From positions 100,070,001 to 100,134,000 of the forward strand of contig CM059431.1 in assembly GCA_030390025.1 (NCBI GenBank): a stretch of 64,000 bases of DNA, given 5' to 3'. This DNA comes from Squalus acanthias. Taxonomy: Eukaryota. This document shows positions 2,060-57,500 of the stretch, piece after piece (the first letter of the stretch is position 1; each line of letters starts with the position of its first letter). Under the pieces are notes generated by a model, which did no database searches, had not been told where the DNA came from, and saw only the letters and a list, made by a program, of their open reading frames with translations. A program made the position numbers and the translations under genes.

Positions 2060-2325
2060 TGGTTTCTCTTGCCTTGCTCTTGCCTTGATCATCTCTTAAT
2101 GTTTCTTAATCTCTCCTTTTGTTCTTTCATCCCCTCCCCCTTTTCCCAGCTTTATCCTTGCCTTAAATCTATTTCATTTCCTGCTATTTCCAGTTCTGAC
2201 GAAAGGTTTTCGACCTGAAACGTTAACTCTGTTTCTCTCTCCACGGATGCTGCCTGGCCTGCTGAGTTTTTCCAGCGTTTTCTGTTGTTATTTCGGATTT
2301 CCAGCATCTGCAGTATTTTGCTATC
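2060..2325 (+). mobile_element. Penelope-like element terminal fragment (solo tail)
   Basis: Matches the sequence following the GIY-YIG ORF at 32400-32670 (ctgacgaa...gaaacgttaactctgtttctctctccac...ccagcatctgcagtattttgct). Confidence 0.8.
2192..2228 (+). ncRNA. Minimal hammerhead ribozyme motif (Penelope-associated)
   Basis: AGTT-CTGACGA-A-AGGT tttcg ACCT-GAAA-CGT-T-AACT: intact core, stem II, palindromic ACGT stem III, stem I AGTT/AACT. Confidence 0.7.
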
Positions 2326-2334
2326 ATATGGTTT

Positions 2335-2650
2335 CTCTTATTTGTTCTGGAGTGTGGGCGACGCTGGCGAGGCCAGCATTTATTGCCCATCCCTAGTTGC
2401 CCTGAGAAGGTGGTGGTTGGCCGCCCTCTTGCACCGTTGCAGTCCGTGTGGTGCTGGTGCTCCAATTCAGGATGGTGTGCGACTTGGAGGGGAACTTGGA
2501 AGCGGTGGCGTTCCCATGATATTACTGCTCAGTGGTAGAGGTCACGAGGGGGGCGGTGGAGGTGCTGTCAAAGTAAACTTGGCGGGTTGCTGCTGCGCTT
2601 CGTGTAGATGGTACATGCCGCAGTGTGCCGGTGGCGGAGGGAGTGGATAT
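2335..2650 (-). mobile_element. Degenerate 3' fragment of YSPLAW-type LINE
   Basis: Similar to 7955-8157 and 57510-57900. Confidence 0.75.
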
Positions 2651-2974
2651 TAAAAGAAAACTACTTTAAAATCAGGGTATCCTATCTCTGGCGGCAATTC
2701 CCCCTATTTTCCCTCTGCCCCTGCCCTAAGCATGTTTCCTTGTTCAGAGGCTAAGAAGAAAGTCCTCTTCTGACATTTCAAGCTGGTAGGGATTGTGAAA
2801 GAGCCCCCCCACTAATTTGACCTTTCCTGTGGTCATATTTCCCTCTCATTCTCACTGGCCAAAGGTTTATGTGTGGGGAATGTTAGACATGAACTTGTGT
2901 CCTGCTGATGAGATAGCGAGATGTGAAATGTCATCATTCTTGTGATCTTGGCCTCTCGGTATTTAAACTTGTTG

Positions 2975-3450
2975 TAGGAACAGGGGGAGGCCATTCAGCC
3001 CCTCGAGCCTGTTCCGCCATTCAGTTCAGATCACGGCTGATCTGTATCTTAACTCCATCTACCCGCCTTGGTTCCGTAACCCTTAATACCCTTGCCCAAC
3101 AAAAATCTATCGATCTCAGTTTTGAAATTTTCAATTGCCCCCCCCAGCCTCAACAGCTTTTTGGGGGAGAGAGTTCCAGATTTCCACCACCCTTTGTGTG
3201 AAGAAGTGCTTCCTGACATCACCCCTGAACGGCCTGGCTCTAATTTTAAGATGATGCCCCCTTGTTCTGGACTTCCCCCCCCCCCCCCCCCCCCCCCCCC
3301 CCAGCAGTTGAAATAGTTTCTCTTTCTCTACCCTATCGAATCCTTTAATCATCTTAAACACCTCACCCCTTAATCTTCTATAGTCGAGGGACAACACGCC
3401 CAGTCTGTGCAACCTGCTCTCGTAACTTAACCCTTTCAGCCCCGGTATCA
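2975..3450 (-). mobile_element. CR1 3' fragment with internal poly-C run
   Basis: MIPGLKGLSYE...RTRGHHLKI...FFTQRVVEIWNSLP; C-run at ~3275-3302. Confidence 0.88.
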
Positions 3451-4057
3451 CTCTGGTGAAGTTGGGATGTGATAGTTGAGTTCTTGTTGCATGGCAGACG
3501 TTGAGGTGTCATTGCTGTCGATGTGCTCATCACTTGAAGGAACGGTAGCATGTAAAATGTCATTGGTTTAAATAGTCTTATTTGCAGCACAGATTACAGC
3601 AATTTTCAGATTAACAGCGTATACTGTTGAGTAAAAGCAGACATCTGTCCATTATGGTCACGAGTGTCCGGTACCATTAGACCAGCCATCTGGCCAGATT
3701 AGCCTGGGCCTCCCCTGGAGTAACTTCAGTTCAGCAGGTTTACTTATTTGTTCAATAGGAGCTTTTAATTTTTTTCCCTTCTATTTTCAGAATGTGAAAC
3801 CATGCAGAAAAATTCATAGCATTGTAAAATATAGTAACTTGTCCGAACGAAATAACGAAAATATAGTAACTTGTCCTATGAAGCTGTTTTGATGGAGTAA
3901 ATAAGGAGAAACTACGCTTTGATCCCAATCTTATCCCTCTCCTTCTGTTTCTTCCCTTGTTACATTTCCTTTTTTCTGTCATTCCTGGAGTCCACAACTG
4001 GATCCTGACAGACTAAATGCTGCCAGCTAGAAAATAATAATATTGTGCATTTTCTGA

Positions 4058-4371
4058 GACCTTGGCATCTGCGCTCCTCCAATTCTGGCCTCTTGCTCAT
4101 CCCCGATTTCCATCGCTCCACCATTGGCGGCCGTGCCTTCAGCTGCCGAGGCCCTAAGCTCTGGAATTCCCTCCCTAAACCTCTCCGCCTCTCTCTCCTC
4201 CTTTAAGACGCTGCTTAAAACCGACCTCTTTGACCCAGCTTTTGGTCACCTGCCCTAATATCTCCTTATGTGGCTTGGTGTCAAATTTTATTTGATAATC
4301 CTCCTGTGAAGCACCTTGGGACGTTTTACTACGTTAAAGGCGCTATATAAATACAAGTTGTTGTTGTTGTT
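4058..4371 (+). mobile_element. L2 LINE 3' end
   Basis: ggcggccgtgccttcagc (GGRAFS)...aaaggcgctatataaatacaag(ttg)n; matches 23000-23308. Confidence 0.85.
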
Positions 4372-4412
4372 GAAAGGTGTAATTAAGTTGGCGCTGAAAT
4401 GGTGAAGGATGC

Positions 4413-4682
4413 TGTGTGTCTGGGTGTGTGTGGTTGGTTGGGTGTGTGTGGTTGGTTGGGTGTGTGGGTGGGTGTGGTGTCGTGGTGGGTGGGGGTGTGG
4501 GTGTGGTGTGTGGTGTCTGGGTGGGTGTGGTGTCTGTGGTGGTGGGTGGGTGTGGTGTCTGTGTGGGTGTGGTGTCTGTCTGGGTGGGTGTGGTGTCTGG
4601 GTGGGTGTGGTGTCTGGGTGGGTGTGGTGTCTGGGTGGGTGTGGTGTCTGTGGGTGTGTGTGGTGTCTGGTGGTGTGTGTGT
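4413..4682. repeat. GT-rich compound micro/minisatellite (~17-bp ggtgtctgggtgggtgt unit)
   Basis: Direct inspection. Confidence 0.9.
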
Positions 4683-4936
4683 ATAACTTGCTTTTAATGT
4701 TGGGTGAATCATTTTTTTGCCATTTGATTAGTTTGTGTGTTTACTGTTCGTGCTCAGAGCAACCACAGCGACGAATGTTGTCTGGTCGCTGTGACATTGT
4801 AAAGCAAAAATGTAAACCTTCAGACTAGGTCATAACTGAGGAAAAAATTCAACTCTTGAATTTAAAATAAAAATTCCGGTGAATTGTTGATGCTGGCCTG
4901 ATCTAAAGGGATGGTTCAGAAGGTCTAGTGAAGATT

Positions 4937-5407
4937 AGAAAGAAAAACTTGCATTTCTACAGCGCCTTTCATGACCACCGGACGTCTCAAAGCGCTTTAC
5001 AGCCAATGAAGTACTTTTTGAAGTGTAGTCACTGTTGTAATGTGGGAAATGCGGCAGCCAATTTGCACACAGCAAGCTCCCACAAACAGCAATATGATAA
5101 TGACCAGATCATCTGTTTTTGTTATGCTGGTTGAGGGATAAATATTGGCCCAGGACACCGGGGAGAACTCCCCTACTCTTCTTCAAAATAGTGGCCGTGG
5201 GATCTTTTACGTCCACCTGAGAGAGCAGACGGGGCCTCGGTTTAACATCTCATCCGAAAGACAGCACCTCTGACAGTGCGGCACTCCCTCAGCACTGCAC
5301 TGAAGTGTCAGCCTAGCTTTATGTGCTCAAGTCCCTGGAGCGAGACTTGAACCCACAACCTTCTGACTCAGAGGCGAGTGTGCTACCAACTGAGCCACAG
5401 CTGACAC
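4937..5407 (-). mobile_element. DeuSINE (SacSINE1-like), single 33-bp unit
   Basis: tRNA head (tggctcagttgg, ggttcaagtc), Deu-like domain (ggatgagatgttaaaccgagg...aagatccc...ccccggtgtcctgg), L2-like tail. Confidence 0.85.
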
Positions 5408-5734
5408 TGTAGTGCATGGTGATGGATCTAACCTACACGTACACTTTTTTTCATTACTCTTAAAGCTTTGACAGTTCAGCGCACCCTGTGGAGGAGCAGG
5501 GGAATCACTGACTGACAGCAACTTCTGGATTTACACCTCTAACAGTGCATGCGGTTTCACAGAGTAATGGCGGTGAAAGTCATTCTAAATATGGAAGGAG
5601 GAAAATGATACTTGGATCATTTGATCCTGCCATAACCTGAGCTAAGATTTTTTATTTTAGGTCGTGTGGTACCAAAATCCATTTTTTTTTTTGCCATTTG
5701 ATTAGTTTGTGTGTTTACTGTTTTGTGACACATT

Positions 5735-6095
5735 GGCCCTGAATTTCCGATCGGAGGCTCCCTGCGGGCGGATGCCTCCGATCGGATAAAATCTACGAAC
5801 TTACCTGCTGGCTCCGTAGATCCCGAGGCTTGCGATCCTGGGCCTCTCCTGGTCCGCGCGCAGAGGCCCAGGTATCCCAGGGGGCGCAGGCGGTTCGCAA
5901 GCGTCCCTGGGATCACGTGGGCCACGGGGAACCAATCAAAGAAGGGAATCCCCCTTCACACTTTTGACAGGTCTGTACACACAGAACTGTCAAAAGTATG
6001 AATGGGTATCACTTAAAAAAACACAATTAAACATTAACTAATTTTTTTTTTAAATCACATATTTAAAATTACATTAAATTTAAATATTTTAAATT
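5735..6095 (+). mobile_element. Truncated copy of the GC-rich hairpin MITE family (family M1)
   Basis: Begins att|ggccctgaattt; homologous to the left end of 38054 and the reverse complement of the 19796 end. Confidence 0.7.
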
Positions 6096-6247
6096 TAAAC
6101 TCCCCCTCTGCTCTTTCCCCATAGCCTGGCAAATCTTTCCTTTTCAAGTATTTATCCAATTCCCAGGAGGTCGAATATTGTTACCTGTACACAGTGATTT
6201 TTTTTTTTCTATCCAGGTCTGCTTGTTGATGGTTTACTCTTTTATAG

Positions 6248-6352
<105 letters not shown>

Positions 6353-6355
6353 TAA

Positions 6356-6565
<210 letters not shown>

Positions 6566-6574
6566 TAAGAACAA

Positions 6575-7804
<1,230 letters not shown>

Positions 7805-7954
7805 TGAGGCCTGATTTTACAAATGTTGCTTTTCTTAATCAATATTGGGTTATATCTAATTTATTATTTTGAATTATTATCTGTGGCTCCTTTTTTCGTG
7901 TCAACAAAATTTCTTTTCAATTAACTAATCTGTTTTATTTTTACTGAAATAAGT

Positions 7955-10458: not shown

Positions 10459-10714
10459 GTAATGGTGACCATGAAACTACTGGATTGTCGTAAAAACCCA
10501 TCTGGTTCACTAATGTCCTTTAGGGAAGGAAATCTGCCGTCCTTACCCGGTCTGGCCTATATGTGACTCCAGACCCACAGCAATGTGGTTGACTCTTAAC
10601 TGCCCTTTGTGGTTCAAGAAGGCGAGCTAATAGAACAATATTAGAGTGAAGCTCAGTGGAAACGCAGTAATAAAGAAACGGAGCCGAGCAATCTGCAAAA
10701 ACCGTTAAAAACAG

Positions 10715-11000: not shown

Positions 11001-11259
11001 GAACCTAGTTGCTTTTGTGTAGTCAGAATACAGAATCTACGCTTTTATGTCATGACCATGTCATCAATAATGTCTTTTCTTTTAAGCATCTTGTTGGTAT
11101 CGAGAGATTTTTTTTTTAAAAAGCAAAAATTGTAAGCATAACTTGATCTATTATCTCATGGTAAACAGAAGGACTAAAGTTGACCTTCCTTTTTATTAGA
11201 GTTTGCTGTTTTTTTGAAAAATCAGATGTAGTCCCCAGTTACAGCTTCATTTTGTCAAA

Positions 11260-12191: not shown

Positions 12192-12377
<186 letters not shown>

Positions 12378-12414: not shown

Positions 12415-12850
12415 AGGTTAAATTCTGAGGACAGGTTGCACAGACTAGGCTTGTATTCCCTCGAGTTTAGAAGATTAAGGCTTGATCTAATCGAGGTGTT
12501 TAAAGGAGTTGACAGGGTAGATAGAGAGGAACTATTTCCTCTGGTGGGGGGAGTCCAGAACAAGGGGGCATCACCTTAAAATTAGAGCCAGGCCGTTCAG
12601 GGGTGATGTCAGGAAGCACTTCTTCACACAAAGGGTGGTGGAAATCTGGAACTCTCTCCCCCGAAAAGCTGTTGAAGCTGGGGGGTCAATTGAAAATTTC
12701 AAAACTGAGATTGATAAATTTTTGTTGGGTAAGGGTGTTAAGGGAAACGGAACCAAGGCGGGTAGATGGAGTTAAGATACAGATCAGCTGTGATCTAATT
12801 TAATGGTGGACCAAGCTCGAGGGGCTGAATGGCCTCCTCCTGTTCCTGTG
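12415..12850 (+). mobile_element. CR1 3' fragment ~50 nt downstream of exon 7
   Basis: cacaaagggtggtggaaatctggaactctctccc; tail ggggctgaatggcctcctcctgttcct. Confidence 0.85.
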
Positions 12851-15530: not shown

Positions 15531-15871
15531 CTCTAGTTATTAGTAACTGTCTACATTTTAGAAGGACCTGTACACAAGCAGGCACCACATTTTAAATGTG
15601 TCCAGGACAAGAAAATTCACACATTGTTCCTTTCTGATTTGGCTCAAATAACCATCACCTGTTGAACTAACTGTGCTGATGCCGATACATACGAAAAGTT
15701 ATCAGAGAAATCTCGAAACCAACCAATTCATTCGGCCAGATTTTATTTCGAAAGATACCAATCTCGTAGCAGCAGCTACCACGCAACATCCAATTGTATT
15801 GTTCCATTTATTTTCTCAAACCGCTGCCTTGATTTCTGATCCAGCCATATAAATAATGGGACTTAACGAAT

Positions 15872-16060
15872 AACAGAAAATGCTGGAAACACTCAGCAGG
15901 TCAGGCAGCATCCGTGGAGAGAGACCAGTTCAGACGAAGGGTTTCAGACCTGAGATGTTAACTCTGTTTCTCTCCCCTCGATGCTGCCTGACCTGCTGAG
16001 TGTTTCCAGCATGTTCTGTTGTTACTTCAGATTTCCAGCCTCCGCAGTGTTTTGCTATTG
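15872..16060. mobile_element. Fold-back Penelope-like tail (inverted arms around a decayed hammerhead core)
   Basis: Arms 15872-15912 and 15980-16020 are reverse complements at 40 of 41 nt. Confidence 0.8.
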
Positions 16061-28390: not shown

Positions 28391-28915
<525 letters not shown>

Positions 28916-29087
28916 TGACACTTGTACAGAAAACTAATGTTACCAGTTAGTGTACGCTTTTCGTTTTATTTAAAGTTGAGAGGAGGAGGAGGAGGAGGAG
29001 GAGGAAGTAGTGTTCTTTTCAATCCAAAGTATCCCCCGAAAAAGTACAACAACTGCAAGAGCAAAGGCTGGGAGCATTCAGTTGCTT

Positions 29088-29330
29088 GCGGGCGGGATGG
29101 GGCAGGGGGGCGGGATGGCGCGGGGGCGGGTGTGATGGGGCGGGATGGTGCGGGGGCGGGTGTGATGGGGCGGGATGGGGCAGGGGCGGGTGTGATGCGG
29201 CGCGGGCGGGGTGAGGCGGGTGTGATGGGGCGCAGGCGGGATGAGGCGAGTGTGATGGGGCGCGGGCGGGATGGCGCAGGGGCGGGTGAAATGGGCGGGG
29301 GCGGGTGGGATGGGCGGGGGCGGGCGGGGG
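29088..29330. repeat. G-rich degenerate ~30-bp minisatellite (gggcgggatggcgcgggggcgggtgtgatg)
   Basis: Direct inspection; preceded by (GGA)n at ~28979-29005. Confidence 0.85.
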
Positions 29331-30381
29331 GATTGCCAGTTAAGAAAATATCAGTCTCGCCTAGAACTGCTTTGTTGAGTCTTTTAGTTAGAAAAGATCC
29401 TCACAAGTGACGTATTCAACTAGAAGGTTATGCTGATAGGGTGAGATGAAGAGGGGTGGGAGGAGGCTCGAGTGGAGCAGAAACAGTGGCACAGACCAGT
29501 TGGGCCGAATGGCCTGTTTCTGTGCTCTACATTCTATGTAACATTCTTTATGTTGCTGCCACGGAACTGTGATCATCATCCTTCCCCATCGTGGTCCTGG
29601 AAGGAAATCGAAGTTAATTTCAGCCTTAAGTCAATCGTTGCACTCGCCTGGGGGTAGGGGAGGGGAGGGGGTGAGGGCCTGGGGTGGGGGGAGGGGGTGA
29701 GGGCTCGGTGCTGGGGGAGGGGGAGGGGGAGGGGAGTGGGCTGGTGTAAAATCATGGGGATTGTGAACCCAAATGCCTAATTTCATAGAATGGTGCAGCA
29801 CAGCCGGCTCTTTGAAAGAGCTCTCCAATTAGTCCCACTTCCCCCTGCTCTTTCCCCCAGAGCCCTGCAAAATATTTTCTTTTCAAGTATTTATCGAATT
29901 CTATTTTGAACGTTACTATTGAATCTGCTTTCAGGCAGTGCATTATATGCAAAGTTCTGCGTCGGGAGCGCAAATCTATAAAATTATCCTTGTATGTCTC
30001 TCCCATCCCTGAGTTGTTTCTCTTTTAAAAGATGTCTTCAGTAATAAATAGGAAGGAGCACAGGAACAGGAGGAGGCCATTCAGCCCCTCGAGCCTGTTC
30101 CGCTATTCAATGAGTTCATGGCTGATCTGTATCTTAACTCCATCTACCCGCCTTGGTTCCATAACCCTTAATACCCTTACCCAACATAAATCTCTCAATC
30201 TCCGTTTTGACATTTTCAGTTGACCCCCAGCCTCAAACAGCTTTTTGGGGGGAGAGAGTTCCAGATTTCCACCACCCTTTGTGTGAAGAAGTGCTTCCTG
30301 ACATCACCCCTGAACGGCCTGGTTCTAATTTTAAGGCGATGCCCCCTTGTTCTGGACTCCCTCCCCCCCCCGCCCCCCCCA

Positions 30382-32670
30382 ACTGCCGGCATGACATCGG
30401 CCGTCTCAATTTCTCTGCTCCCCTCACTCACTCCAACCTACCTCCCTCTGAACTTGCAGCACTCCATTCTCTCAGATCCAACCCCAACATTGTCATTAAA
30501 CCTGCTGACCAGGGTGGTGCGATGGTTGTTTGGCGAACCGACCTCTACCTAGCGGACGCTGAACGCCAACTCTCCGACACCTCCTCCTACCTCCGCCTGG
30601 ACCATGACCCCACTACCGAACATCAAGCCACCGTTTCCAAGACCGTCATTGACCTCCATCTCCTCTGGAGATCTTCCCTCCACAGCCGCCAACCTCATAG
30701 TTCCCCAACCCCGCACAGCCCACTTCTACCTCCTTCCCAAGATCCACAAACAGGACTGCCCTGGTAGACCCACCGTTTCAGCCTGTTCTTGCCCCACGGA
30801 ACTTATCTCTTCCTATCTCGACTCTATTTTTTCTTCCCTTGTCCAGTCTCTTTCCCACTTACATCTGCGACTCTTCCGACGCCCTCCGTCGCTTTAACAG
30901 TTTCCAGTTTCCTGGCCCCAACCGTCTCCTTTTCACTATGGACGTCCAATCCCTCTACACCTCCAGGATGGCCTGAGGGCGCTCCGCTTCTTCCTTGAAC
31001 AGAGGCCCAACCAGTCCCCATCCACCGCCACCCTCCTCCGCCTGGCTGAACTTGTTCTCACATTGAACAACTTCTCCTTTGACTCCACTCACTTCCTCCA
31101 AATTAAAGGTGTAGCTATGGGAACCCACATGGGTCCTAGCTATGTCTGCCTTTTCGTGGGATATGTGGAACATTCTTTGTTTCAGTCCTACTCGGGTCCC
31201 CTCCCTCACCTATTTTTCCGGTACATTGATGACTGTATCGGTGCTGTTTCCTGCTCTCGCCCTGAACTAGAAAATGTCATTCTCTTTGAATCCAATTTCC
31301 ACCCTTCCTTCACCTTCACATGGTCCATCTCCAACTCTTCCCTTCACTTCCTCGACTTCTCTGTCTCCATCTCTGGGGATAGGCTATTGACAAACATTCA
31401 CTACAAGCCCACTGACTCCCACAGCTACCTGGACTACACTTCCTCCCACCCCGCCTCCTGTAAGGACTCTATTCCATTCTACCAGTTTCTCCATCTCCAC
31501 CGCATCTGCTCTGACGATGCCACATTCCATACCAGAGCTTCCGACATGTCTTCCTTTTTCCTCAACCAAGGATTCCCCTCTACTGTGGTTGACGCGGCCC
31601 TCGGCCGTGTCCGTTCCATTTCCCACACTTCTGCTCTCACCCCTTCCCCTCCCTCCCGGAACCACGATAGGGTTCCCCTTGTCCTCACTTTTCACCCCAC
31701 CAGCCTCCACATTCAATGGACCATCTTCCGCCACCTCCAGCGTGATCCCACCACCAAACAGCATTCCAAAGGGACCACTCCCTCCGCGACACCCTGGTCC
31801 ACTCCTCTTTCACCCCCAACACCCCTTCCCCTTCCCCTGGCACCTTCCCGTGCAAGCGCAGGAGATGCAACACATGCCCTTTTACTTCCTCCCTTTCCAC
31901 TGTCCAGGGCCCCAAACACTCTTTCCAGGTGAAACAGCGATTTACTTGTACTTCTTGCAATTTAGTATACTGTATTCGCTGCTCACGATGTGGTCTCCTC
32001 TACATTGGGGAGACCAAACGCAGATTGGGTGACCGCTTTGCAGAACACCTCCGTTCAGTCCGTAAGGGGGACCCCGAGCTTCCGGTTGCCTGTCACTTTA
32101 ATTCACTGCTTCACTCCCACTCTGATCTCTCTGTCCTCGGCCTCTTGCATTGTTCCAATGAAGCTCAATGTAAGCTCGAGGAACAGCACCTCATCTTTCG
32201 ATTAGGCACTTTACAGCCTTCTGGACTTAACATCGAGTTCAACAACTTCAGACCATAACCTCTGCCCCTATCTTTTTTTCCATTTATTTTCTCTCTCTCA
32301 CATGGCAGCTGTCTTTCATTCTGCCATCGCCATTTACACTTCATCTAGAGCCATCTTTTGTTTCTTAACTTGTCCCATGACCATCTCCTTTTGCCTTGCA
32401 CCATCATCCCTTTTGTCTCTTAACCTCTCCTGCCTTCCATCCTATCACAGACCTTCCCTTTTGTTCTTTCCTCCCCTCCCCCCTTTCCCTGCCCCCGCAC
32501 TTGCTTAAAAACCTGTTACATCTCCAACTTTTTCCAGTTCTGACGAAGGGTCATCGACCTGAAACGTTAACTCTGTTTCTCTCTCCACAGATGCTGCCTG
32601 ACCTGCTGAGTGTTTCCAGCATTTTCTGTTTTTATTTCAGATTTCCAGCATCCGCAGTATTTTGCTTTTG
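30382..32670 (+). mobile_element. Penelope-like retroelement (RT + GIY-YIG endonuclease), truncated and frameshifted
   Basis: [80 protein letters not shown]...SGLN. Confidence 0.92.
32536..32572 (+). ncRNA. Minimal hammerhead ribozyme motif in the Penelope tail
   Basis: AGTT-CTGACGA-A-GGGTC atc GACCT-GAAA-CGT-T-AACT. Confidence 0.72.
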
Positions 32671-32914
32671 CCCCACCAGAGGAAATAGTTTCTCTCCATC
32701 TACCCTATCAACTCCTTTAATCATCTTAACCACATCAATTAGATCACCCCTTAATCTTCTACACTCGAGGGAATACAAGCCCAGTCTGTGCAGCCCGTCC
32801 TCATAATTTAACCCTTTTAGCCCCGGTATCATTCCGGTGAAAAATGTTTTTTTCTTGAGTGAAGAGCAGTAGAGGAGTCCTGTTCTTAGCTTCGTAGACA
32901 TGTAACGTGATATA

Positions 32915-33278
<364 letters not shown>

Positions 33279-35385: not shown

Positions 35386-35889
35386 AGGTGTATTAATAAA
35401 ACCCAACAATGAAACAGAATAGCGGATGATGGCGTGTCCATTTACTTTCGAGAACGGTTGCGTGCATCTCTCCCAGGTCTTTCACACCTGATGCATTAGG
35501 AAACGTTTTTTTTTCCCTCCAGCTAACCATAGAAATAGAAAATGCTGGAAACACCCAGCGGGTCAGATACAACCGCCAGATACCTCCACAGACGCTGCCT
35601 GACCCACTGAGTGTTTCCAGCACTTTCTGTTTTTCTTTCAGATTCCCAGCACCCGCAGTGTTTTGATTTTGTAATATGCCAAGGCTATGTTCTGCCACAA
35701 AAAATATAACTTCGCTATGAAAGGAAAGAGTGTGTGTGTTTAATATTTCAATTTTTTTTTTTTAAGTTTCCTGTATGTACAAGGGCCAGTCTTTCGAGCA
35801 CAAATGTTTGGCAGGCACTAGTGTTTGGAAAACCAGCCCTATCCTGTTAACTTGCACAATTTCACTTGTATCTCGCTGACAGACTTCAT

Positions 35890-42385: not shown

Positions 42386-42734
42386 TAAAGAGAGGATAGA
42401 TGTCCACTCAGTATTGCCTCTGGAATTCAGTATGATTCTCTGCAAATTCACGCTCTCTGTACAAAAGGGGGAAAGAAAAAGCAAATGGTGCATTGTGTGT
42501 CAATAAACTCGTGCTGTGTTCCAGTCTATTGAAAGGCGCCTAAAGCACGAGAACAAATCATTTTCAATTACACCATACGAGCACTTGAATATAACGTGAC
42601 AACATCTGAAAGCTGAACAGAAACAATTAAGCTTACGGTTGCAGCCAGAGGAGTAAGCTGCAGAGCAAGTTTGTTGGTTGATTGATAATAGTTCTGATGA
42701 CTTGACGAGGACCCTTGTAAAAGAAAATATAAGA

Positions 42735-48755: not shown

Positions 48756-49021
48756 TATATATTGCAACGATAATTTTTAAACAGGTTTAGGTTTTCTTAT
48801 GGAATTACAGTGATTTAAAAAGAATCTTTCTCGTCCCCAGACCGCACTTGTGATAAAACTGTAAATTTTCAGTATTTTGTTAAACTGGCTGGTAGTGCAG
48901 CTGACGGCACTTTACACTGTAACCTCTGATCATAAATGAATCTTCTGATGCCTCTGGATGTTTCAGTTTGCTGAACTAATCAATTAAATGAACAACCACA
49001 GTGGACAGACCAAGGTGAAAC

Positions 49022-52000
49022 GGGCTGGAATTTGCTGGAGTGGGGCATCTCGTGGCGTGCCCCGTTAGTTAGACTTTATCGCTCGCCCTTCAGCTCAAAA
49101 TGTTTTTGCGCCGTAACCTGCTGACTGTGTGAGCTGATAACGGGGCGGCGAGTTGGCTAGGATGGATTGGGGAGCGTTACTTATAGGGTTGACGGTGGAT
49201 AGGCAATGGCAAACATTTAAAGATCGCATGGATGAACTACAGAATTTGTTCATCCCTGTTTGGCATAAAAATAAAACAAAAAAGGTGACTCAACTGTGGC
49301 TAACAAGGGAAATTAGGGATGGCATAAGATCCAAGGAGAGGACATATAAATTGGCCAGAAAAAGCAGCAAATCTGAGGATTGGGAGCAGTTTAGGATTCA
49401 GCAAAGGAGGACAAAGGGATTAATTAAGAGGGGGAAAATAGAGTATGAGAGTAAGCTTGCAGGGAACATAAAAACTGACTGTAAAAGCTTCTATAGATAT
49501 GTGAAGAGAAAAAGATTGGTGAAGTCACGCATAGGTCCCTTGCAGTCAGAATCAGGGGAATTTATAATGGGGAACAAAGAAATGGCAGACCAATTAAATA
49601 CATACTTTGGTTCTGTCTTCACAAAGGAGGACACAAATAAACTCCCAGAGATGTCGGGGAACATAGGGTCTAATGAGAGGGAGGAACTGAATGAAATCAG
49701 TATTTGTAGGGAAATGGTGTTGGGGAAATTGATGGGATTGAAGGCCGATAAATCCCCAGGGCCTGATAATCTACATCCTAGGGTTCTTAAGGAAGTGGCC
49801 CTAGAAATAGTAGATGCATTGCTGGTCATCTTCCAAAATTCTATAGACTCTGGAACAGTTCCCATGGATTGGAGGGTAGCTAATGTAACCCCACTATTTA
49901 AAAACAGTGGTAGAGAGAAAACGGGGAATTATAGACCGGTAAGCCTGACATCGGTAGTGGGGAAAATGCTAGAGTCCATTATAAAAGATGTAATAGCAGA
50001 GCACTTGGAAAACAGTGACAGGATCGGACAAAGTCAACATGGATTTACAAAAGGTAAATCATGCTTGACTAATCTCCTGGAATTTTTTGAGGATGTAACT
50101 GGTAGAATAGATAAGGGAGAACCAGTGGATGTGGTGTATTTGGACTTTCAGAAGGCTTTCGATAAGGTCCCACATAAGAGATTAGCGTGCAAAGTTAAAG
50201 CACATGGGATTGGGGGTAAGCTACTGACTTGGATAGAAAACTGGTTGGCAGACAGGAAGTAATGAGTTGGAATAAACGGGTCTTTTTCCGAGTGGCAGGC
50301 AGTGACTAGTGGGGTACCGCAGGGATCGGTGCTAGGACTCCAGTTATTCACAATATATATATATTAATGATCTAGATGCGGGAACTAGATGTAATATCTC
50401 CAAGTTTGCAGACGACATAAAGCTGGGTGGGCGTGTGTGCTGTGAGGAGGATGTAGAGAAACTCCAGTATGATTTGGACAGGTTGGGTGATTGGGCAGAT
50501 GCATGGCAGATGCAGTATAATGTGGATAAATGCGAGGTTATCCACTTTGGTGGCAAAAACAGGAAGGCAGATTATTGTCTGAACGGCAATAGATTGGGAA
50601 AAGGGGAAGTGCAACGAGACCTGGGTGTCCTTGTGCACCTGTCGCTGAAGGTAAGCATGCAGGTGCAGCAGGCGGTTAAGAAGGCAAATGGTATGTTGGC
50701 CTTCATAGCGAGAGGATTCGAGTTCAGGAGCAAGAATGTCTTGCTGCAGTTGTACAGGGTCTTGGTGAGACCACACCTTGAGTATTGTGTGCAGTTTTGG
50801 TCGCCTTATCTGAGGAAGGATGTTCTTGCCATGGAGGGAGTGCAGCGAAGATTCACCAGACTGATACCTGGGATGGCAGGAATGACGTATGAAGAGAGAT
50901 TGGGTCGATTAGGCTTTTATTCACTGGAGTTTAGAAGAATGAGAGGGGATCTCATTGAAACTTATAAAATTCTAACAGGACTAGACAGACTAGATGCAGG
51001 AAGGATGTTCCCGATGGCGGGGGAGTCCAGAACCAGGGGTCACAGTCTAAGGATAAGGGGTAAGCCATTTAGGACTGAGATGAGGAGGAATTTCTTCACC
51101 CAGAGAGTGGTGAACCTGTGGAATTCTCTACCACAGAAGGCAGTTGAGGCCAATTCATTAAATATATTCAAGAAGGAGTTAGATATATTTCTTAAGGCTA
51201 AGGGGATCAAGGGATATGGGGAGAAGGCAGGGACAGGGTACTGAATTTGGATGATCAGCCATGATCGCATTCAATGGCGGAGCAGGCTCGAGGGGCTGAA
51301 TGGCCTACTCCTGCTCCTATCTTCTGTGTAACGGGGCATCTGGGACCCCAGTGAACGACGGGACCAACAGTCTATCTCCTTAACCCATGAGATTAAAGGA
51401 TTGAGAAAGAATCAGAGGAACGACGGAGAAAGAACTCTGGTGATTTAGAGTCAAATCAGGTACAGAAAGAGAAATAAAGAGAAGGAAAAAAGATTGGATT
51501 AAGAGAGAGAGAGAAAAGAGACAAAGAAAAAATGCAAGAACAAAAAATACAAAATGTAAAATCTGACATTTTTAAATCTCCAACAATTTATTACCTGAAG
51601 GAATGAGACTCAATAATTTACATTGTTCACTTTCTGGGCCAGAGAGATTGATTGGCATTCCATTAACAATTATCATGTTGTTAAGGGAATCGAGGGATAT
51701 GGGATCGGGCAGGATCTTATTGAATGGCGGAGCAGGCTCGAGGGGCCGAATGGCTGACTCCTGCTCCTAATTTCTTATGTTCTTAAAAGGGCACTTGCAC
51801 TATTAATTACTAGACGTGACTGTCTGCGGCGAGTTTAATGGGCAATTAATGCGCGAATCCAGCAAGTTGTTAAAAATAACGGGGAGGCTGAGGCCGAGAT
51901 GCCATTTGTGCGAAGCAAACAGCGGAGCGACGTAAACCGAGCAGCGAGTTCTGGAGATTCGCGACTCTCGGCGTACCTCCCCATCCCCTGAACTCACTGG

Positions 52001-52066
52001 CCGATTTGCCCATTATTAACGGCGTGCGTCGTTAACAAGCTGTAATTGTTCCAGCAAGATTCGGCT
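49022..52066. mobile_element. Probable MITE (imperfect TIR gggctggaatttgctgga / tccagcaagattcggctc) hosting a CR1
   Basis: CpG-rich ends with an AT/GA-rich core; imperfect TIRs. Confidence 0.5.
49147..51328 (+). mobile_element. 5'-truncated CR1 LINE (~2.2 kb) with 9-bp TSD taacggggc
   Basis: ORF2 motifs SPGPD, NYRPVSLTS, QHGF, AFDKVPH, FADD; one stop and a (ta)n frameshift near 50260-50365; TSD at 49138-49146 and 51329-51337. Confidence 0.94.
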
Positions 52067-52559
52067 CATCGTGTATCTTACAGAGTACATCCAAACATTC
52101 ACTAATAGCATGATTTGTCATCGGAAACAAGCAAAAAGGTCTGGGCAAAACTGATCTAAAAGACCACCAATTTAGAGTGGGAGAACTATCAAGGGCTTGC
52201 ATTTCTTGTATGAAAATGTAAACAATATTGCAGTGTTTGCTTTTGGGGTTGTCGATGAAGGTAAATTGTCGTGTGAAAATAGAGCAAAGGTATAGTTAAA
52301 AAGGCTAGATAATTGGAATGCACAGAGGAAAAATAGAATAAAACCGCAGTCTGGCATTTCAAAAACATTTGGAAGATTTACCATTAGTTTTCAAACTCTC
52401 CCGGCCCACGAGAACTGACCCACCTAGAAAAACCAACATATTGCCAAGAACCATCCTAACTTCTGAAACAGAGTGTTATTTACTCAAAGGAAAACCCAGT
52501 ACTGTACTATCATTGCTTAAAAAAATCTTTTTTTATTGGTATATAGCAATAGAAATCAT

Positions 52560-53366
52560 GGCCGCGGTATTTACTGGGGAGGGGTTTCAGAGCGGGGGCA
52601 GGCGCTGTGGTCGGGCGAACGCTGGAGTTTTAACTCCACGGCGTGCGTGCGTGCTTTTTAAACTGGTTCCCCGCACGGAGGCCCACCTGGTTGACGGGCT
52701 TGGCCGCCTGTTGGGCAGGGAAACAGTCGCAACCCAGGATCGGGTATGTTTTGTGGTTGTTGGGGGTCAAAGATCGGGGTGGGGGGGGGTGCGGTTGAGA
52801 TGGGTGGGTCCAGGGGGCGCGAGATTATGGAGGTGGGGGAGTTGGTGGTTGCGGGGGGGAACAGATGGGGGTTGGGGGGAGAGTCGAAGATGATGGAGGG
52901 GGGGTTAGTGATGGGGGGGAATCGGGGGCGAGATCGTGGAGTTGGAGACTGTGGGAGATTGAGATGGGGGGAGTCGGTGATCGTGGGCGGGGACGGAGGG
53001 GGGGCGGTGGAGTTGGGGAGTGTTTACAGGGTAGAGTTGGCCTGGAGGAGACACTCCTGCTCTTCCTGGCCCACAAGCAGTGCTGTAAAGGCACGTACCT
53101 GATGGATCCGGCCCTTCTCACCTCCTTTTACCTGCAGGGTTTCCCGACCGACGTGGGTTTAAAATAGAAACCTTGTTAAAATGGAGGCACACAGCTTCAT
53201 TCACTGGTTTCAATGACCGACCCGCCTCCTGAGAGTGGATTGGCCGCCCGCTCCTCATCCCGTGGGTGGGTTCGAGGCAGGTTGGGTTCGGGTTTCAGAT
53301 TTTTAACATTTTAACCTCCCACCCAACACAAACCCACCTGTTTTTGGGGGGTTAAAACTTCCCCCC
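52560..53366. mobile_element. GC-rich MITE family M2 with expanded G-rich interior
   Basis: Inverted homologue of 35890-36457. Confidence 0.6.
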
Positions 53367-53470
53367 AATGTCTTCATAAGTAGGAAGAAAAGAAATAAAT
53401 TAGAAACCTGACATCACTCATAGGGAAATCTAATGACCTTGGAGTCCTCCTGGAATAATTATGTCCCAAT

Positions 53471-53945
53471 AACAACAACTTGCATTTATATAGCGCCTTT
53501 TAATGTAGTAAAACACCCCAAGGTGTTTCACAGGAGCGATTATCAGACAATATTTGATACTGAGCCACATAAGGAGATATTAGGGCAGGTGACCAAAAGC
53601 TTGGTCAAAGAGGTCAGTTTTAAGGAGCATCTTAAAGGAGGAGAGAGAGGCGGAGAGGTTTAGGGAGGGAATTCCAGAGCTCGGGGCCCAGGCAGCTGCA
53701 GGCACGGCCGCCAATGGTGGAGCAATGGGAATCGGGGATGAGCAAGAGGCCAGAATTGGAGGAGCACAGAGATCTCGGAGGGTTGTAGGGTGGAGGAGGT
53801 TACAGAGATAGGGAGGGGGCGAGGCCACGGAGGGATTTGAAAACAAGGATGAGAATTTTAAGAGCGAGGCGTTGCTTAACCAGGAGCCAATGTAGGTCAG
53901 TGAGCACAGGGGGTGATGGGTGAACGGGACTTGGTGCGAGTTAGT
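53471..53945 (-). mobile_element. L2 LINE 3' portion
   Basis: LTRTKSRSPITP; (aac)n tail. Confidence 0.87.
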
Positions 53946-54342
53946 TTGGAGATGTACGATTTGTGTAACTGGTGCAGTGTGGTATCACAGCAACCTGGGG
54001 ACAGGTTCATACTCGTGATTCTACTACCTCGCCTCTGGCAGTAGACAGATGGCGCTGGATTTTCAAGTCCGGATAGCGATGGAAAATCAGCAGACGGGGC
54101 CTCCCATGCTACTCGTGTCCTGACCCCTATTTCCCTGCCAACCACCCCTTACCTCACCTGCTGTGTGTTAATTTTACCGGGGAAGTGGATTCCAAGAAGT
54201 CACCAAATTTCCCTCATGCTGCCGCGGTGTCCACTGACCTCCAGAACCAGTAGGTGGTAGTAGTCCCCGGAGCTGTAGTGGTAAATCGCCAAGGATGCTA
54301 GATGGAGGAAAGGGCCCAAGTAGCGGACTTCACTCCTCCATA

Positions 54343-54765
54343 GGTGTCGGCCGTGGCTCACCTCTCGCCTCCGAGTCAGAAGGTTCGTGGGTTCAAGAAC
54401 CACTCCAGAGATTTGAGCACAAAAATCTAGACTGAACACTCCCAGTCCAGTGCTGAGGGAGCGCCGCACTGTCAGAGGTGCCGTCTTTTGGATGAGACGT
54501 TAAACCGAGGCCCCGTCTGCTCTCTCAGGTGGACGTAAAAGATCCCATGGCACTATTTCGAAGAAGAGCAGGGTGGTTCTCCCCGGTGTCCTGGCCAATA
54601 TTTATCCCTCAACCAACATCACTAAAAACAGATGATTTGGTCATTATCTCGTTGCTGTTTGTGGGATCTTGCTATGCACATATTGGCTGCCGCGTTAACA
54701 GTGACCACTTCAAAAGTCATTCATTGGCTGTAAAGTGATTTGGGACGTCCTGAGGCCGTGAAAGT
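54343..54765 (+). mobile_element. DeuSINE, single unit
   Basis: Head, Deu domain and tail. Confidence 0.85.
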
Positions 54766-55019
54766 TATAGGCACCAAAGACTAACTTTTCTAGGCAAAAA
54801 ACAATCTCCAGTCCTCATCTTTGGAGCTTTTTCTTCCTCCTTTAAATTGCGTCGGACTCGTCAGGGGCTACAGCACTGGCCTTGTTGCTGCGCTCCCAGA
54901 ATCTCCGATACTTGTAACAGTAAGGTGTCCTCGAGATGGCGGGGACTCCGCCAGGAGCCTGCCTTGCTTACCAAATATTCCCAACCCACCGACTCCGTCC
55001 CCTCCCTGGCCATTGTCTA

Positions 55020-55605
55020 AAGCTGAACCAGACTGTTCGTGACCTTGGCATCCTTAATTGACCCTGAGCTGAGCTTCCAACCCCATACCCTCTCCATCGC
55101 CCGTCTCCACCCCAGCCTCAGCTCATCCGCTGCTCAAATCCTTATCCATGCATTTTTTTCTCCAGACTCAACTATTCCAACGCTCTCCTGGCTGGCCTCC
55201 CACATTCCACCCTCTGTAAACTTGAGCTCATCCAAAACTCCGCTGCCCGTGTCCTAACTCGCACCAAGTCCCGTTCGGCCATCACCCCCTGTTCTCGCTG
55301 ACCTACATTGGCTCCCGGTCCAGCAACGCCTCGATTTAAAAATTCTCAGCCTTGTCTTCAAATCCCTCCATGGCCTCGCCCCCTCCCTATCTCTCTAATC
55401 TCCTCCAGCCCTACATCCCTCCGAGATCTCTTCACTCCTTCAATTCTGGCCTCTTGCCCATCCCCGATTTTAATCGCTCCACCATTGGCGGCCGTGCCTT
55501 CAGCTGCCTGGGCCCTAAGCTCTGGAAATCTCCTCCCTAAACCTCGCTGCCTCTCTCACCTCCTTTAACACGCTCCTTAAAACCGACCTCCTTGACCAAG
55601 CTTTT
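55020..55605 (+). mobile_element. L2 LINE fragment
   Basis: cctacattggctcccgg (LHWLP); GGRAFS. Confidence 0.85.
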
Positions 55606-55794
55606 GGGAGCAAGAATTCTGTGCCACTGTGTCTCCAAGTGGTTGGTGATAATGTTTCATCTGATAATACCATGGGATGTATTGAAGATTTATTTTCAAT
55701 TCCTGTTGAGAATTGCTCTTTTTTTTCCCCAAGTAACCTGAAAAATATTTTAATAATTCTGATGAAGTTGGCATTTGTGGGTTACGAGATGATG

Positions 55795-56757
55795 CTCGAG
55801 GTGTTTCCCCTGGTTGGAGAGTCTAGAACTAGGGGGCATAGTCTCAGGATAAAGGGTCGGCCATTTAGGACTGAGATGAGGAAGAATTTCTTCACTCAGA
55901 GGGTGGTGAATCTTTGGAATTCTCTACCCCAGAGGGGTGTGAATGCTGAGTTGTTGAGTATATTCAAGGCTGAGATCGATAGATTTTTGGACTCTAGGGG
56001 AATCAAGGGATATGGAGATCGGGCGGGAAAGTGGAGTTCAGGTCGATGATCAGCCATGATCTTATTGAATGGCGGAGCAGGCTCGAGGGGCCGAATGGCC
56101 GACTCCTGCTCCTCATTTTTATGTTCTTGCATAATAAATTCAGTTTTACTACTCCTGATTGTGTCCCAAATTTATATGGTCTCTTTAAACAAACTTGTCA
56201 AGCTCATATCAGTTAATAGCATTGTGTTGCTTTTTTTCTATAATACATAGAACGATACCGCACAGGAGGAGGCCATTCGGCCCATCGTGCCTGTGCTGGC
56301 TCTTTGAAAGAGCTCTCCAATAAGTCCCACTCCCCCCTGCTCTTTCCCCAGAACCCTGTAAATTTTTCCCTTTCAAGTATTTATCCAATTCCCTTTTGAA
56401 AGTTACTATTGAATCTGCTTCCAGGCAGCGCATTCCAGTTCACAACAACTCACTGCGTAAAAAAAATTCTCCTCATCTCCCCTCTGGTTCTTTTGCCAAT
56501 TATCTTCAATCTGTGTCCTCTGGTTACCGACCCTCCTGCCACTGGAAACAGTTTCTCATTAACACCCCTCATAATTTTGAGCGCCTCTTAAATCTCTCCT
56601 TAACCTTCTCTGCTCTAAGGAGGACAATCCCAGCTTCTCCAGTCTCTCCACAAAACTGAAGTTACTCATCCCTGGCACCATTCCAGTAAATCTCCTCTGC
56701 ACCCTCTCCAAGGCCTTGACCTCCTTCCTAAAGTGTGGTGCGTAGAATTGGACACAA
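55795..56757. mobile_element. CR1 3' fragments (55795-56128 +; 56245-56757 -)
   Basis: RTRGHSLRIKG; ERVQRRFT. Confidence 0.85.
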
Positions 56758-57500
56758 TGCCCTTTTACCTCCTCCCTTCCCACTGTCCAGGGGCCCAAAC
56801 ACTCCTTCTAGGTGAAACAGCAATTTACTTGTACTTCTTACAATTTGGTATACTGTATTCGCTGCTCACGATGTGGTCTCCTCTACATTGTGGAGACCAA
56901 ATGCAGATTGGGTGACCGCTTTGCGGAACACCTCCGTTCAGTCCGTAAGGGTGACCCTGAGCTTCCTGTCGCCTGTCACTTTAATTCTCCGCTCCACTCC
57001 CACTCGGACCTCACCGTCCTCGGCCTCTTACACTGTTCCAATGAAGCTCAACGTAAGCTCGAGGAACAGCACCTCATCTTTCGACTAGGCACTTTACAGC
57101 CTTCTGGACTCAACATCGAGTTCAACAATTTCAGATCATAACCTCTGCCCCTATTTTTTCAGGCTGGCAGCTGTTGATGATTCTGCCATTCCCATTTACA
57201 CCTCTTCTAGACCCATCTTTTGTTTCTTTACTTGTCCCATTACCATCTCCTTTTGCCTCGCACCATCATCCCTTTTGTCATTTAATCTCTCCTACCTTCC
57301 ACCCTATCACAGACCTTCCCTTTCGTTCTTTCCTCCCTCACCCGCTTTCCCTGTCTCTGCACTTGCTTAAAATCTGTTATATCTCTAACTTTTTCCAGTT
57401 GTGACGATAGATCATCGACCTGAAACGTTAACTCTGTTTCTCTCCCCACAGATGCTGCCTGACCTGCTGAGTGTTCCCGGCATGCTCTGTTTTTATATTG
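56758..57500 (+). mobile_element. Penelope-like 3' fragment (GIY-YIG + tail with mutated hammerhead)
   Basis: CTSYNLVYCIRCSRCGLLYIVET; near-identical to 31870-32640. Confidence 0.9.

What the first reader, a model, noticed from the sequence alone, without database searches (positions are those of the whole stretch)
2192..57435. Minimal hammerhead ribozyme motifs in Penelope-like tails, sense to the NALCN pre-mRNA
Seen: at 2192-2228 and 32536-32572 the + strand reads AGTT-CTGACGA-[A, stem II]-GAAA-CG-T-T-AACT. This is the full hammerhead core (CUGANGA, GAAA, predicted cleavage after GUU) with a 4-bp stem I (AGTT/AACT) and a loop-less palindromic ACGT stem III. The 32536 copy lies directly downstream of a Penelope RT/GIY-YIG ORF. 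Decayed copies occur at ~15927 (CAGACGA/GAGA), ~57397 (GTGACGA) and ~32977 (- strand, truncated). Established: Penelope-like elements carry minimal hammerheads with palindromic stem III that are thought to cleave as dimers. Inference: two intact cores in one pre-mRNA (the intron before exon 4 and intron 8) could pair and cut nascent NALCN RNA, or the dimer requirement may explain why sense intronic copies are tolerated.
Basis: partly seen in the sequence, partly recalled or inferred. Interest (0 to 1): 0.8.

Follow-up and report, generated by a model that had tools for sequence, protein, structure and literature searches.

The report
Penelope-element minimal hammerheads in NALCN introns
Two small hammerhead-ribozyme motifs really are present, but they are ordinary tail pieces of dead Penelope-like jumping genes that litter this cartilaginous-fish genome, and nothing suggests they cut the NALCN message.

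Summary
Exact minimal hammerhead motifs lie at 2192-2228 and 32536-32572 on the + strand. That is the sense strand of NALCN, and both sit in introns. Mutated copies lie at about 15927, 57397 and 32977(-). The 32536 copy lies 278 nt behind the GIY-YIG reading frame of a broken, 5'-truncated Penelope-like element (30368-32670).

The motif shows the published marks of Penelope minimal hammerheads: CUGANGA and GAAA boxes, an unpaired A after A9, a 5-bp helix II, a loop-less palindromic ACGU helix III and a GUU cut site.

It is ordinary in this genome. There are 51,456 intact cores of this type (about 0.9 per 64 kb) and 81,854 of a second type whose helices II and III differ by compensatory changes.

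The functional idea is not supported. The monomer is predicted to fold into an inactive hairpin, and the active dimer scores about 12-14 kcal/mol worse. The two copies sit in different introns 30 kb apart. Published work reports weak or protein-dependent cutting. A spliced NALCN contig exists.

This scan had already noted the same class in this genome (e1-7790369) and in another shark genome (e1-7789389). It is a new member of a known kind, of low interest.

The parts
2115..2322 (+). Short 3' tail fragment of a Penelope-like element (older copy, 86% like the 32457-32666 copy)
   Evidence: blastn; alignment
2192..2228 (+). Minimal hammerhead motif, intact by sequence. Helix II is AGGUU/GACCU (A-U, G-C, G-C, U-A, U.G). 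The predicted cut lies between 2224 and 2225.
15925..16060 (+). Tail fragment with a mutated hammerhead (15927-15963: U4>A, A13>G, C15.2>U). An inverted tail piece at 15869-15924 abuts it head to head.
30368..32670 (+). 5'-truncated, broken Penelope-like element. Its reading frame is split over frames (30165-30767, 30553-30897, 30898-31932, 31746-32258) by at least two frame shifts and one stop. It is inserted into a SINE-like repeat (30053-30367 plus 32671-32760).
31746..32258 (+). Reading-frame piece with the GIY-YIG endonuclease motif; it ends 278 nt before the hammerhead
   Evidence: Pfam PF01541, 23.2 bits against a cut-off of 22.6
32536..32572 (+). Minimal hammerhead motif, intact by sequence. 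Helix I 32536-39 / 32569-72; CUGACGA 32540-46; bulged A 32547; helix II 32548-52 / 32556-60; loop 32553-55; GAAA 32561-64; CG 32565-66; UU 32567-68. The predicted cut lies between 32568 and 32569.
32573..32670 (+). Tail behind the hammerhead. Copies elsewhere end either at about 32635-32642 or at 32669-32670.
   Evidence: loose ends in all 4 runs
32908..33012 (-). Tail fragment on the antisense strand with a mutated hammerhead (33012-32976: A6>G, A9>C, A13>G)
56752..57496 (+). 5'-truncated element copy (88% like 31870-32635) with a mutated hammerhead at about 57397-57434 (C3>G and others)
28733..28894 (+). NALCN exon (human residues about 267-315), upstream of the intron that holds the 32536 copy
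33165..33269 (+). NALCN exon (human residues about 316-350), AG|..|GT, downstream of the same intron

Best explanation
The motifs are the minimal, dimer-type hammerhead of an abundant, recently active Penelope-like element (PLE) family of a cartilaginous fish. In the element's own life cycle the motif sits in the terminal non-coding region, about 100-135 nt before the 3' end of inserted copies. By analogy with studied PLEs it helps to process long or tandem element transcripts, probably only as a dimer and with help from the element's protein. The copies in this window are dead, 5'-truncated insertions in NALCN introns. As single copies they most likely fold into an inactive hairpin and are removed with the intron, with no effect on NALCN through RNA cutting. 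Shown here: the sequence anatomy, the PLE context, the abundance, the covariation between families, and the predicted energies. Inferred: the role in the element's life cycle and the inertness in the intron.
For: The motif is exact and far above chance.

It carries marks that my search patterns did not ask for and that PMC4209133 (main text read) lists as typical. These are an unpaired nucleotide between A9 and 10.1, a palindromic 15.2-16.2, a short helix I, and a place in a PLE terminal region behind an RT/GIY-YIG frame.

Genome-wide, CTGANGAN{10,24}GAAACGTTAAC is found 51,456 times (25,559 forward, 25,897 reverse) against 7 for the reversed control. That is 0.89 expected per 64 kb.

A second type, CTGANGAN{10,24}GAAAGCTH, is found 81,854 times against a control of 338. 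It keeps the bulged A but has helix II GGAGC/GCUCC and helix III AGCU. Compared with the window's GGGUC/GACCU and ACGU, three pairs therefore change on both sides (10.3-11.3, 10.4-11.4, 15.2-16.2). The A/T-palindrome pattern is at chance, 10,480 against 8,758.

Copies show PLE hallmarks: variable 5' truncation, head-to-head inverted pieces, and two discrete 3' ends about 33 nt apart (passages of PMC8557442).

The monomer minimum-energy fold pairs UGACG of the core with CGUUA (-11.7 and -10.1 kcal/mol). The active dimer evaluates at -9.7, -8.7 and -7.7 against -23.4, -21.8 and -20.2 for the monomer pairs.

PMC11167929 (passages) reports on an Anolis PLE hammerhead. It cuts only with the element's protein. 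Core mutants do not affect insertion. No RNA-seq reads begin or end at the cut site.
Against: No cutting was measured here, either way.

The 10.1-11.1 pair is G.U or A-U instead of the G-C that PMC4209133 calls highly conserved.

No upstream repeat with a second hammerhead was found for the window's element or for one longer copy, so the 'both flanking repeats' arrangement is not shown for this family.

Within the family the core is not clearly better kept than the helices. This rests on my hand tally of the 100 listed rows. Non-CpG core: 19 changes in 1,100 cells. Helix I: 23 in 800. Helix II: 10 in 700. This is what neutral decay of dead copies gives, so it does not support selection either.

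Nearest-neighbour energies ignore the tertiary contacts of the core.
Confidence: 0.85

Rival explanations
1. The sense copies do cut NALCN pre-mRNA. They would do so either by pairing of the 2192 and 32536 copies within one nascent transcript, or by pairing in trans with other tail-bearing RNAs. This would lower NALCN output.
For: Both cores are intact by sequence and on the sense strand. The helix III palindrome allows a dimer in principle. Tail-bearing contigs are very numerous in the three runs guessed to be RNA, with 5,337, 4,513 and 4,146 records laid, so partners in trans could exist.
Against: The copies lie in different introns, 30,344 nt apart. By general knowledge of co-transcriptional splicing (inference), the first intron should be gone before the second copy is made. 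The dimer structure scores 12-14 kcal/mol worse than the monomer hairpins. With intact cores about every 72 kb (28 kb counting both types), most long genes would be hit. The literature reports low in vitro activity even as dimers (PMC4209133), protein dependence, and no reads ending at the site (PMC11167929). A 5,545-nt contig carries the exon 33165-33269 without its introns.
Confidence: 0.04
2. The motif is not a working ribozyme in this family. It would be a conserved hairpin of the element's 3' region (for example for protein binding), or a vestigial passenger whose hammerhead boxes no longer matter.
For: The minimum-energy fold is a hairpin that buries the core. No Rfam hammerhead model matches. 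The 10.1-11.1 pair is non-canonical. The core is no better kept than the helices within the family (hand tally). Passages of PMC8557442 say that the function of hammerheads in endonuclease-bearing PLEs is unclear and that PLE clades without them proliferate well. In PMC11167929, core mutants do not affect insertion.
Against: All 11 invariant core positions, the bulged A and the palindrome are kept in two families whose helices differ by compensatory changes. An Anolis PLE hammerhead cuts, with C3G/G8C rescue (PMC11167929).
Confidence: 0.09
3. One of the copies has been taken over by the host as a conserved intronic regulator of NALCN, like the intronic hammerheads of amniote RECK and CTCL.
For: Sense orientation in introns of a long neuronal gene.
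Against: The tail of the 32536 copy is 96-99% identical to 39 other scored copies elsewhere in the genome (40 rows listed, one being the window itself), so it is a young insertion. The 2192 copy is one of tens of thousands. No conservation at the same place in other species was shown or sought.
Confidence: 0.01

Closest known systems
Minimal hammerheads (min-HHR) in the terminal repeats of metazoan Penelope-like elements (Cervera and de la Pena 2014, PMC4209133; main text read)
   Same: Type I layout. CUGANGA and GAAA boxes. An unpaired nucleotide between A9 and 10.1. No helix III hairpin, but a palindromic 15.2-16.2. A short helix I. Found mostly as single motifs of truncated elements, often in inverted pairs, behind an RT/GIY-YIG frame.
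   Different: 10.1-11.1 is G.U or A-U, not G-C. Helix II has 5 bp, against 6-8 in the cases described there. The copy number is far higher (51,456 plus 81,854 intact cores, against about 9,000 reported for Xenopus). Cartilaginous fishes are not named in that paper or in the 2 of its supplementary files that could be searched.
Hammerhead of the Anolis Poseidon element PAc (Frangieh et al. 2024, PMC11167929; passages read)
   Same: A vertebrate PLE with a hammerhead at the border of the terminal repeat. Copies end at discrete internal sites that define a 'tail'.
   Different: In PAc the reading frame starts inside helix II. Here an ATG lies 22 nt behind the cut site and is open for 27 codons to the element's end, but it matched no PLE protein start.
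Non-LTR retrozymes and dimeric hammerheads of newt and Schistosoma repeats (PMC7229834, listing only; preprint 10.64898/2026.07.22.740005, results section read)
   Same: Type I hammerheads with a weak, palindromic helix III, thought to act as dimers. They are related to PLE terminal repeats and are reported as under-represented in introns of Xenopus.
   Different: Those are tandem arrays. The window's copies are dispersed single tails 13-30 kb apart.
Intronic hammerheads of amniote genes (RECK, CTCL; reviewed in PMC6155905, passages read)
   Same: Sense hammerheads inside introns of host genes.
   Different: Those are canonical monomeric ribozymes conserved at one place across species. These are young copies of a repeat without a helix III hairpin.

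Membership tests
Hammerhead ribozyme (catalytic core) | C3 U4 G5 A6 N7 G8 A9 box, and G12 A13 A14 followed by A15.1 | tested here: met
   Both copies read CTGACGA ... GAAA
Hammerhead ribozyme (catalytic core) | Cut site N-U16.1-H17 followed by the helix I strand | tested here: met
   GUU then AACU, which pairs with AGUU
Hammerhead ribozyme (catalytic core) | Three helices around the core within one molecule | tested here: not met
   Helix I (4 bp) and helix II (5 bp) are present. Helix III has no loop and can form only between two molecules.
Hammerhead ribozyme (catalytic core) | Match to Rfam hammerhead covariance models | tested here: not met
   No hammerhead hit at gathering score or at E<=10. 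This is expected for motifs without a helix III hairpin.
Hammerhead ribozyme (catalytic core) | Self-cleavage | not testable with these tools
   Only contigs were on hand, with no table of read starts or ends
min-HHR of Penelope-like elements (PMC4209133) | Unpaired nucleotide between A9 and 10.1 | tested here: met
   A at 2203 and at 32547. It is kept in 100 of the 100 listed rows (one row has an extra A beside it) and in the second family.
min-HHR of Penelope-like elements (PMC4209133) | Palindromic 15.2-16.2 without a loop | tested here: met
   ACGU in the window; AGCU in the second family
min-HHR of Penelope-like elements (PMC4209133) | G10.1-C11.1 pair | tested here: not met
   G.U at 32548/32560 and A-U at 2204/2216. 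In one search, 32 of 100 rows differ from G at 10.1 (31 have A). The second family does have G-C.
min-HHR of Penelope-like elements (PMC4209133) | Families with compensatory changes in the helices | tested here: met
   Between the two types of this genome, 3 pairs change on both sides. Within the family there are only one-sided changes.
min-HHR of Penelope-like elements (PMC4209133) | Motif in both flanking repeats of a full element | tested here: not met
   No upstream repeat or second motif for the window's element, nor for the C19 copy extended by 4.4 kb. Both are 5'-truncated, so the test is weak.
Penelope-like element with endonuclease | Reverse transcriptase followed by a C-terminal GIY-YIG endonuclease | tested here: met
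   GIY-YIG in the window's frame. The RT frame itself has no Pfam hit, but 101 relatives were found at E<=0.001 (best 2.7e-143), most of them with RVT_1 and several with GIY-YIG on record. Rescanning two of these, P0122 reached the RVT_1 cut-off (32.9 against 29.6 bits), P0143 fell just short of it (29.4 bits), and P0143 matched GIY-YIG.
Penelope-like element with endonuclease | Variable 5' truncation, inverted head-to-head copies, discrete 3' 'tail' ends | tested here: met
   Seen across the 30 loci. In the window: 15869-15924/15925 and 35529-35566/35584. Loose ends at 32635-38 and 32669-70 in 4 of 4 runs.
Non-LTR retrozyme | Head-to-tail tandem array of hammerhead-bearing units | tested here: not met
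   The window's copies are single and 13-30 kb apart

The most novel reading that the evidence does not exclude
This genome holds at least 133,000 intact minimal hammerhead cores, about one per 28 kb. Sense intronic copies might dimerise, in trans with abundant tail-bearing RNAs or in cis, whenever active elements supply their protein. They would then cut long pre-mRNAs such as NALCN, giving a damping of long-gene expression that depends on transposon activity.
Probability: 0.03. Interest if true: 0.75.

Novelty: new member of a known kind. Interest (0 to 1): 0.2.

Why it matters
As it stands, the finding adds a cartilaginous-fish family to a ribozyme class described in 2014. It also shows how large the class can become: more than 130,000 intact cores in one 3.7-Gb genome. 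The window's two copies have no special standing. The open question they touch is what Penelope hammerheads do, and whether sense copies in introns cost the host anything. That question is real, but it needs end-specific RNA sequencing and a genome-wide orientation test, not this locus.

Tried and rejected
- **Rfam hammerhead models.** No match.
- **Bare core pattern.** CTGANGA..GAAA..TH alone is at chance in the window, 10 hits against 6.3 expected. The hit at 42690 is chance.
- **A/T palindromes in helix III.** At chance genome-wide.
- **RNA evidence for cutting.** No RNA holder is listed. All four runs laid were contigs, so no table of starts and ends could be made. Stretches without cover in the three runs guessed to be RNA are not used as evidence.
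- **Unbiased genome sample.** That sample gave only 11 tail hits, too few for per-position statistics. I used whole-genome pattern counts and the 100 listed rows instead.
- **Upstream terminal repeat.** None found for the window's element or for one longer copy.
- **Tail reading frame.** The frame from the ATG at 32591 was compared with the starts of 101 PLE-like proteins; no match better than E=0.3.
- **Sense/antisense bias relative to genes.** Not testable, because the genome is unannotated. In the window, 4 hammerhead-bearing tails are sense and 1 is antisense, which is too few to judge.
- **Lunse, Weinberg and Breaker (RNA Biol 2017).** The paper is not held. It is known to me only from the reference list and text of PMC6765202.
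- **Print search for this class in sharks.** 'Penelope' + 'hammerhead ribozyme' + 'shark' gave 1 paper, where 'shark' refers to the shape of the fold. There was no mention in PMC4209133's main text, in 2 of its supplementary files (one could not be searched), or in PMC8557442. The 2026 preprint sampled one unnamed Chondrichthyes species; its supplements are closed.
- **First pattern for the CPEB3-like repeat.** It had the wrong gap and found nothing; it was corrected.


Full report
**What is there**

The + strand reads AGTT-CTGACGA-A-AGGTT-TTC-GACCT-GAAA-CG-TT-AACT at 2192-2228. At 32536-32572 it reads AGTT-CTGACGA-A-GGGTC-ATC-GACCT-GAAA-CG-TT-AACT.

In hammerhead numbering the parts are:
- helix I: AGUU/AACU, 4 bp;
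- core: C3-A9;
- one unpaired A;
- helix II: 5 bp closed by a 3-nt loop;
- G12 A13 A14 A15.1;
- C15.2 G16.2 with no loop between them;
- U16.1 U17, with the cut expected after U17 (2224/2225 and 32568/32569).

The pattern CTGANGAN{8,30}GAAACGTT finds these two places and no others, against 0.03 expected from 100 shuffles. A fuller descriptor of my own finds the same two and none in 50 shuffles. The bare core boxes alone are at chance, 10 hits against 6.3. The signal therefore lies in the whole motif.

At 15927 the changes are U4>A, A13>G and C15.2>U. At 57397 they are C3>G plus changes in the bulge and helix II. At 33012-32976 on the minus strand they are A6>G, A9>C and A13>G.

Rfam's hammerhead models match none of them, at gathering score or at E<=10. 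This is expected, because those models include a helix III hairpin.

**Context**

The 32536 copy lies in the 3' non-coding end of a Penelope-like element at 30368-32670.
- The frame 31746-32258 matches the GIY-YIG domain.
- The frame 30898-31932 has 101 relatives at E<=0.001. Most have RVT_1 on record and several have GIY-YIG. Two were rescanned: P0122 reached the RVT_1 cut-off, P0143 fell just short of it, and P0143 matched GIY-YIG.
- The reading frame is broken by at least two frame shifts and a stop.
- The element is 5'-truncated and sits inside a SINE-like repeat, whose two halves are 30053-30367 and 32671-32760. An uninterrupted copy of that repeat lies at 60820-61195.

The other copies in the window are tail fragments of 90-750 bp. 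Two of them have a short inverted piece abutting head to head (15869-15924 and 35529-35566).

NALCN exons lie on the + strand, so both intact motifs are intronic and sense. I could not check the exon numbers.

The best named protein matches are to cartilaginous fishes. The assembly has 3.71 Gb.

**How common it is**

In the window's own genome, CTGANGAN{10,24}GAAACGTTAAC occurs 51,456 times, split evenly between strands, against 7 for the reversed control. That is 13.9 per Mb, or 0.89 per 64-kb window. Two in one window, both on one strand, is unremarkable.

The tail of the 32536 copy is 96-99% identical to 39 other scored copies, so the family is young.

Most copies are short tails, many in inverted pairs, and they end at 32670 or near 32640. 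Contigs of four public runs show the same two ends: 32635-38 and 32669-70. These are the features that PMC8557442 (passages) and PMC11167929 (passages) describe for Penelope-like elements.

**Is the hammerhead fold under constraint?**

*Within the family.* I anchored on flanks only (TTTCC, a gap, then 28 nt of tail; 7,772 hits) and tallied the 100 listed rows by hand. This was done by eye, so single counts may be off by one or two.
- 54 of 100 rows keep the full core.
- Most losses are at the three CpG pairs, at 8-14% per site.
- Non-CpG core positions changed in 19 of 1,100 cells.
- Helix I changed in 23 of 800 cells.
- Helix II changed in 10 of 700 cells.
- The two non-CpG loop positions changed in 12 of 200 cells.
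- N7 changed in 20 of 100 rows and 10.1 in 32 of 100 (G to A in 31 of them, which still pairs with U11.1).

So within the family the core is not clearly better kept than the helices. This is what neutral decay of dead copies gives.

In the contigs of four runs, the differences listed at 10% or more inside the motif fall only at N7, 10.1 and 1.1, all of them tolerant positions. However, 19 rows of that table were not shown.

*Between families.* A second type, CTGANGAN{10,24}GAAAGCTH, occurs 81,854 times against a control of 338. The pattern asked only for the core boxes and the GC palindrome. The hits nevertheless all show the unpaired A and a complementary helix II, GGAGC/GCUCC, with varied loops.

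Against the window's family, the changes are:
- G-C to A-U at 10.3-11.3;
- U-A to G-C at 10.4-11.4;
- C-G to G-C at 15.2-16.2;
- G.U to G-C at 10.1-11.1.

Patterns with A/T in helix III are at chance. These compensatory changes are the best evidence here that the fold matters to the elements. I did not test whether the second type is also carried by Penelope-like elements.

**Would the copies cut NALCN RNA?**

The 49-nt monomers fold best into a hairpin in which UGACG of the core pairs with CGUUA at the cut site, with helix II at the tip (-11.7 and -10.1 kcal/mol).

The active double hammerhead has helices I and III both formed between the two molecules. It evaluates at -9.7, -8.7 and -7.7 kcal/mol for the three pairings, against -23.4, -21.8 and -20.2 for the pairs of monomer hairpins. 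These energies ignore the tertiary contacts of the core, so they are a guide only.

The two intact copies are 30,344 nt apart and in different introns. By general knowledge of transcription and splicing rates (inference), the first intron should be removed before the second copy exists. No second intact sense copy shares an intron with either, within the window.

The literature points the same way:
- Cervera and de la Pena found no cutting by single motifs and low cutting by dimers (PMC4209133).
- Frangieh et al. found cutting only with the element's protein, no effect of core mutants on insertion, and no RNA-seq reads starting or ending at the site (PMC11167929).
- A 2026 preprint reports that related tandem elements are under-represented in Xenopus introns (10.64898/2026.07.22.740005). 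This leaves room for some cost of genic copies, whatever its cause.

A 5,545-nt contig of run X1 lies on 33163-33269 only, without other letters. That stretch is the exon plus two letters that the preceding exon can supply. Spliced NALCN RNA is therefore made across the intron that holds the 32536 copy. Cutting itself could not be examined: no run on record as RNA, and no raw reads, were on hand.

**Verdict**

One defining feature of the published class is not met (G10.1-C11.1), and one could not be shown (a motif in both flanking repeats). The idea that the copies cut NALCN RNA is unsupported and unlikely. The idea that the dimer requirement makes single sense copies harmless agrees with the data and with print.

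The class was described in 2014. Its presence in cartilaginous fishes was not found in the papers searched. This scan had already noted it in this genome (e1-7790369) and in another shark genome (e1-7789389). It is a new member of a known kind, of low interest.

Noticed in passing
window 59741-59815 (-): This is the only Rfam hit above gathering score in the window: CPEB3_ribozyme (RF00622), 44.6 bits against 35, E=1e-8. It belongs to an old dispersed repeat, with 1,696 first-look candidates and 40 scored at 84-100% identity. This copy has T where the model's catalytic C aligns, which is a CpG site. Of 10 genome copies that match an exact flanking pattern, 4 have C. The aligned P1 has only 4 bp, and the repeat extends at least 30 nt upstream of the expected cut site. 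It may be an HDV-like ribozyme family of a fish repeat, or a look-alike.
   Followed up: partly
genome-wide; none intact in the window: A second, even more abundant minimal hammerhead type: bulged A, helix II GGAGC/GCUCC with G10.1-C11.1, helix III AGCU. It has 81,854 hits against a control of 338, very often as close inverted pairs.
   Followed up: partly
window 32573-32670 (+), and the same part of the other tails: The tail behind the hammerhead holds two pyrimidine tracts that end in CAG (about 32573-32590 and 32638-32659). These look like 3' splice sites. An ATG at 32591 is open for 27 codons to the element's end. Sense copies in introns could offer cryptic acceptors. No joint using them was among the listed rows, and the frame matched no PLE protein start.
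   Followed up: partly
window 30053-30367 + 32671-32760; also 2976-3379, 12469-12850 (-), 60820-61195 and many weaker copies: A SINE-like repeat of about 380 bp, very frequent in the window. The Penelope-like element is inserted into one copy, which fixes the element's ends.
   Followed up: partly
window 15869-16060 and 35529-35671; loci L002, L004, L007, L012, L013, L016, L022, L025, L028: Head-to-head inverted tail pieces. Several junctions lie close to the 5' edge of the hammerhead (element positions about 32534-32556). This suggests a favoured point of truncation or strand switch next to the stable hairpin.
   Followed up: no
window 28966-29400 and 59910-60110: G+C-rich tandem repeats in introns. 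They read as open frames on both strands (GRDGAGAGVM-type units; units of about 45 nt reading GQKVQGSNPTPDSPGEW).
   Followed up: no
window 57723-58043 (-) and 58694-59161 (-): Two fragments with the same conserved C-terminal protein piece (…TIQDKAARLIGTPST.LNIHSLHHRRT…CTIYKMHCSNS…). They are probably the 3' ends of a LINE family, antisense to NALCN.
   Followed up: no
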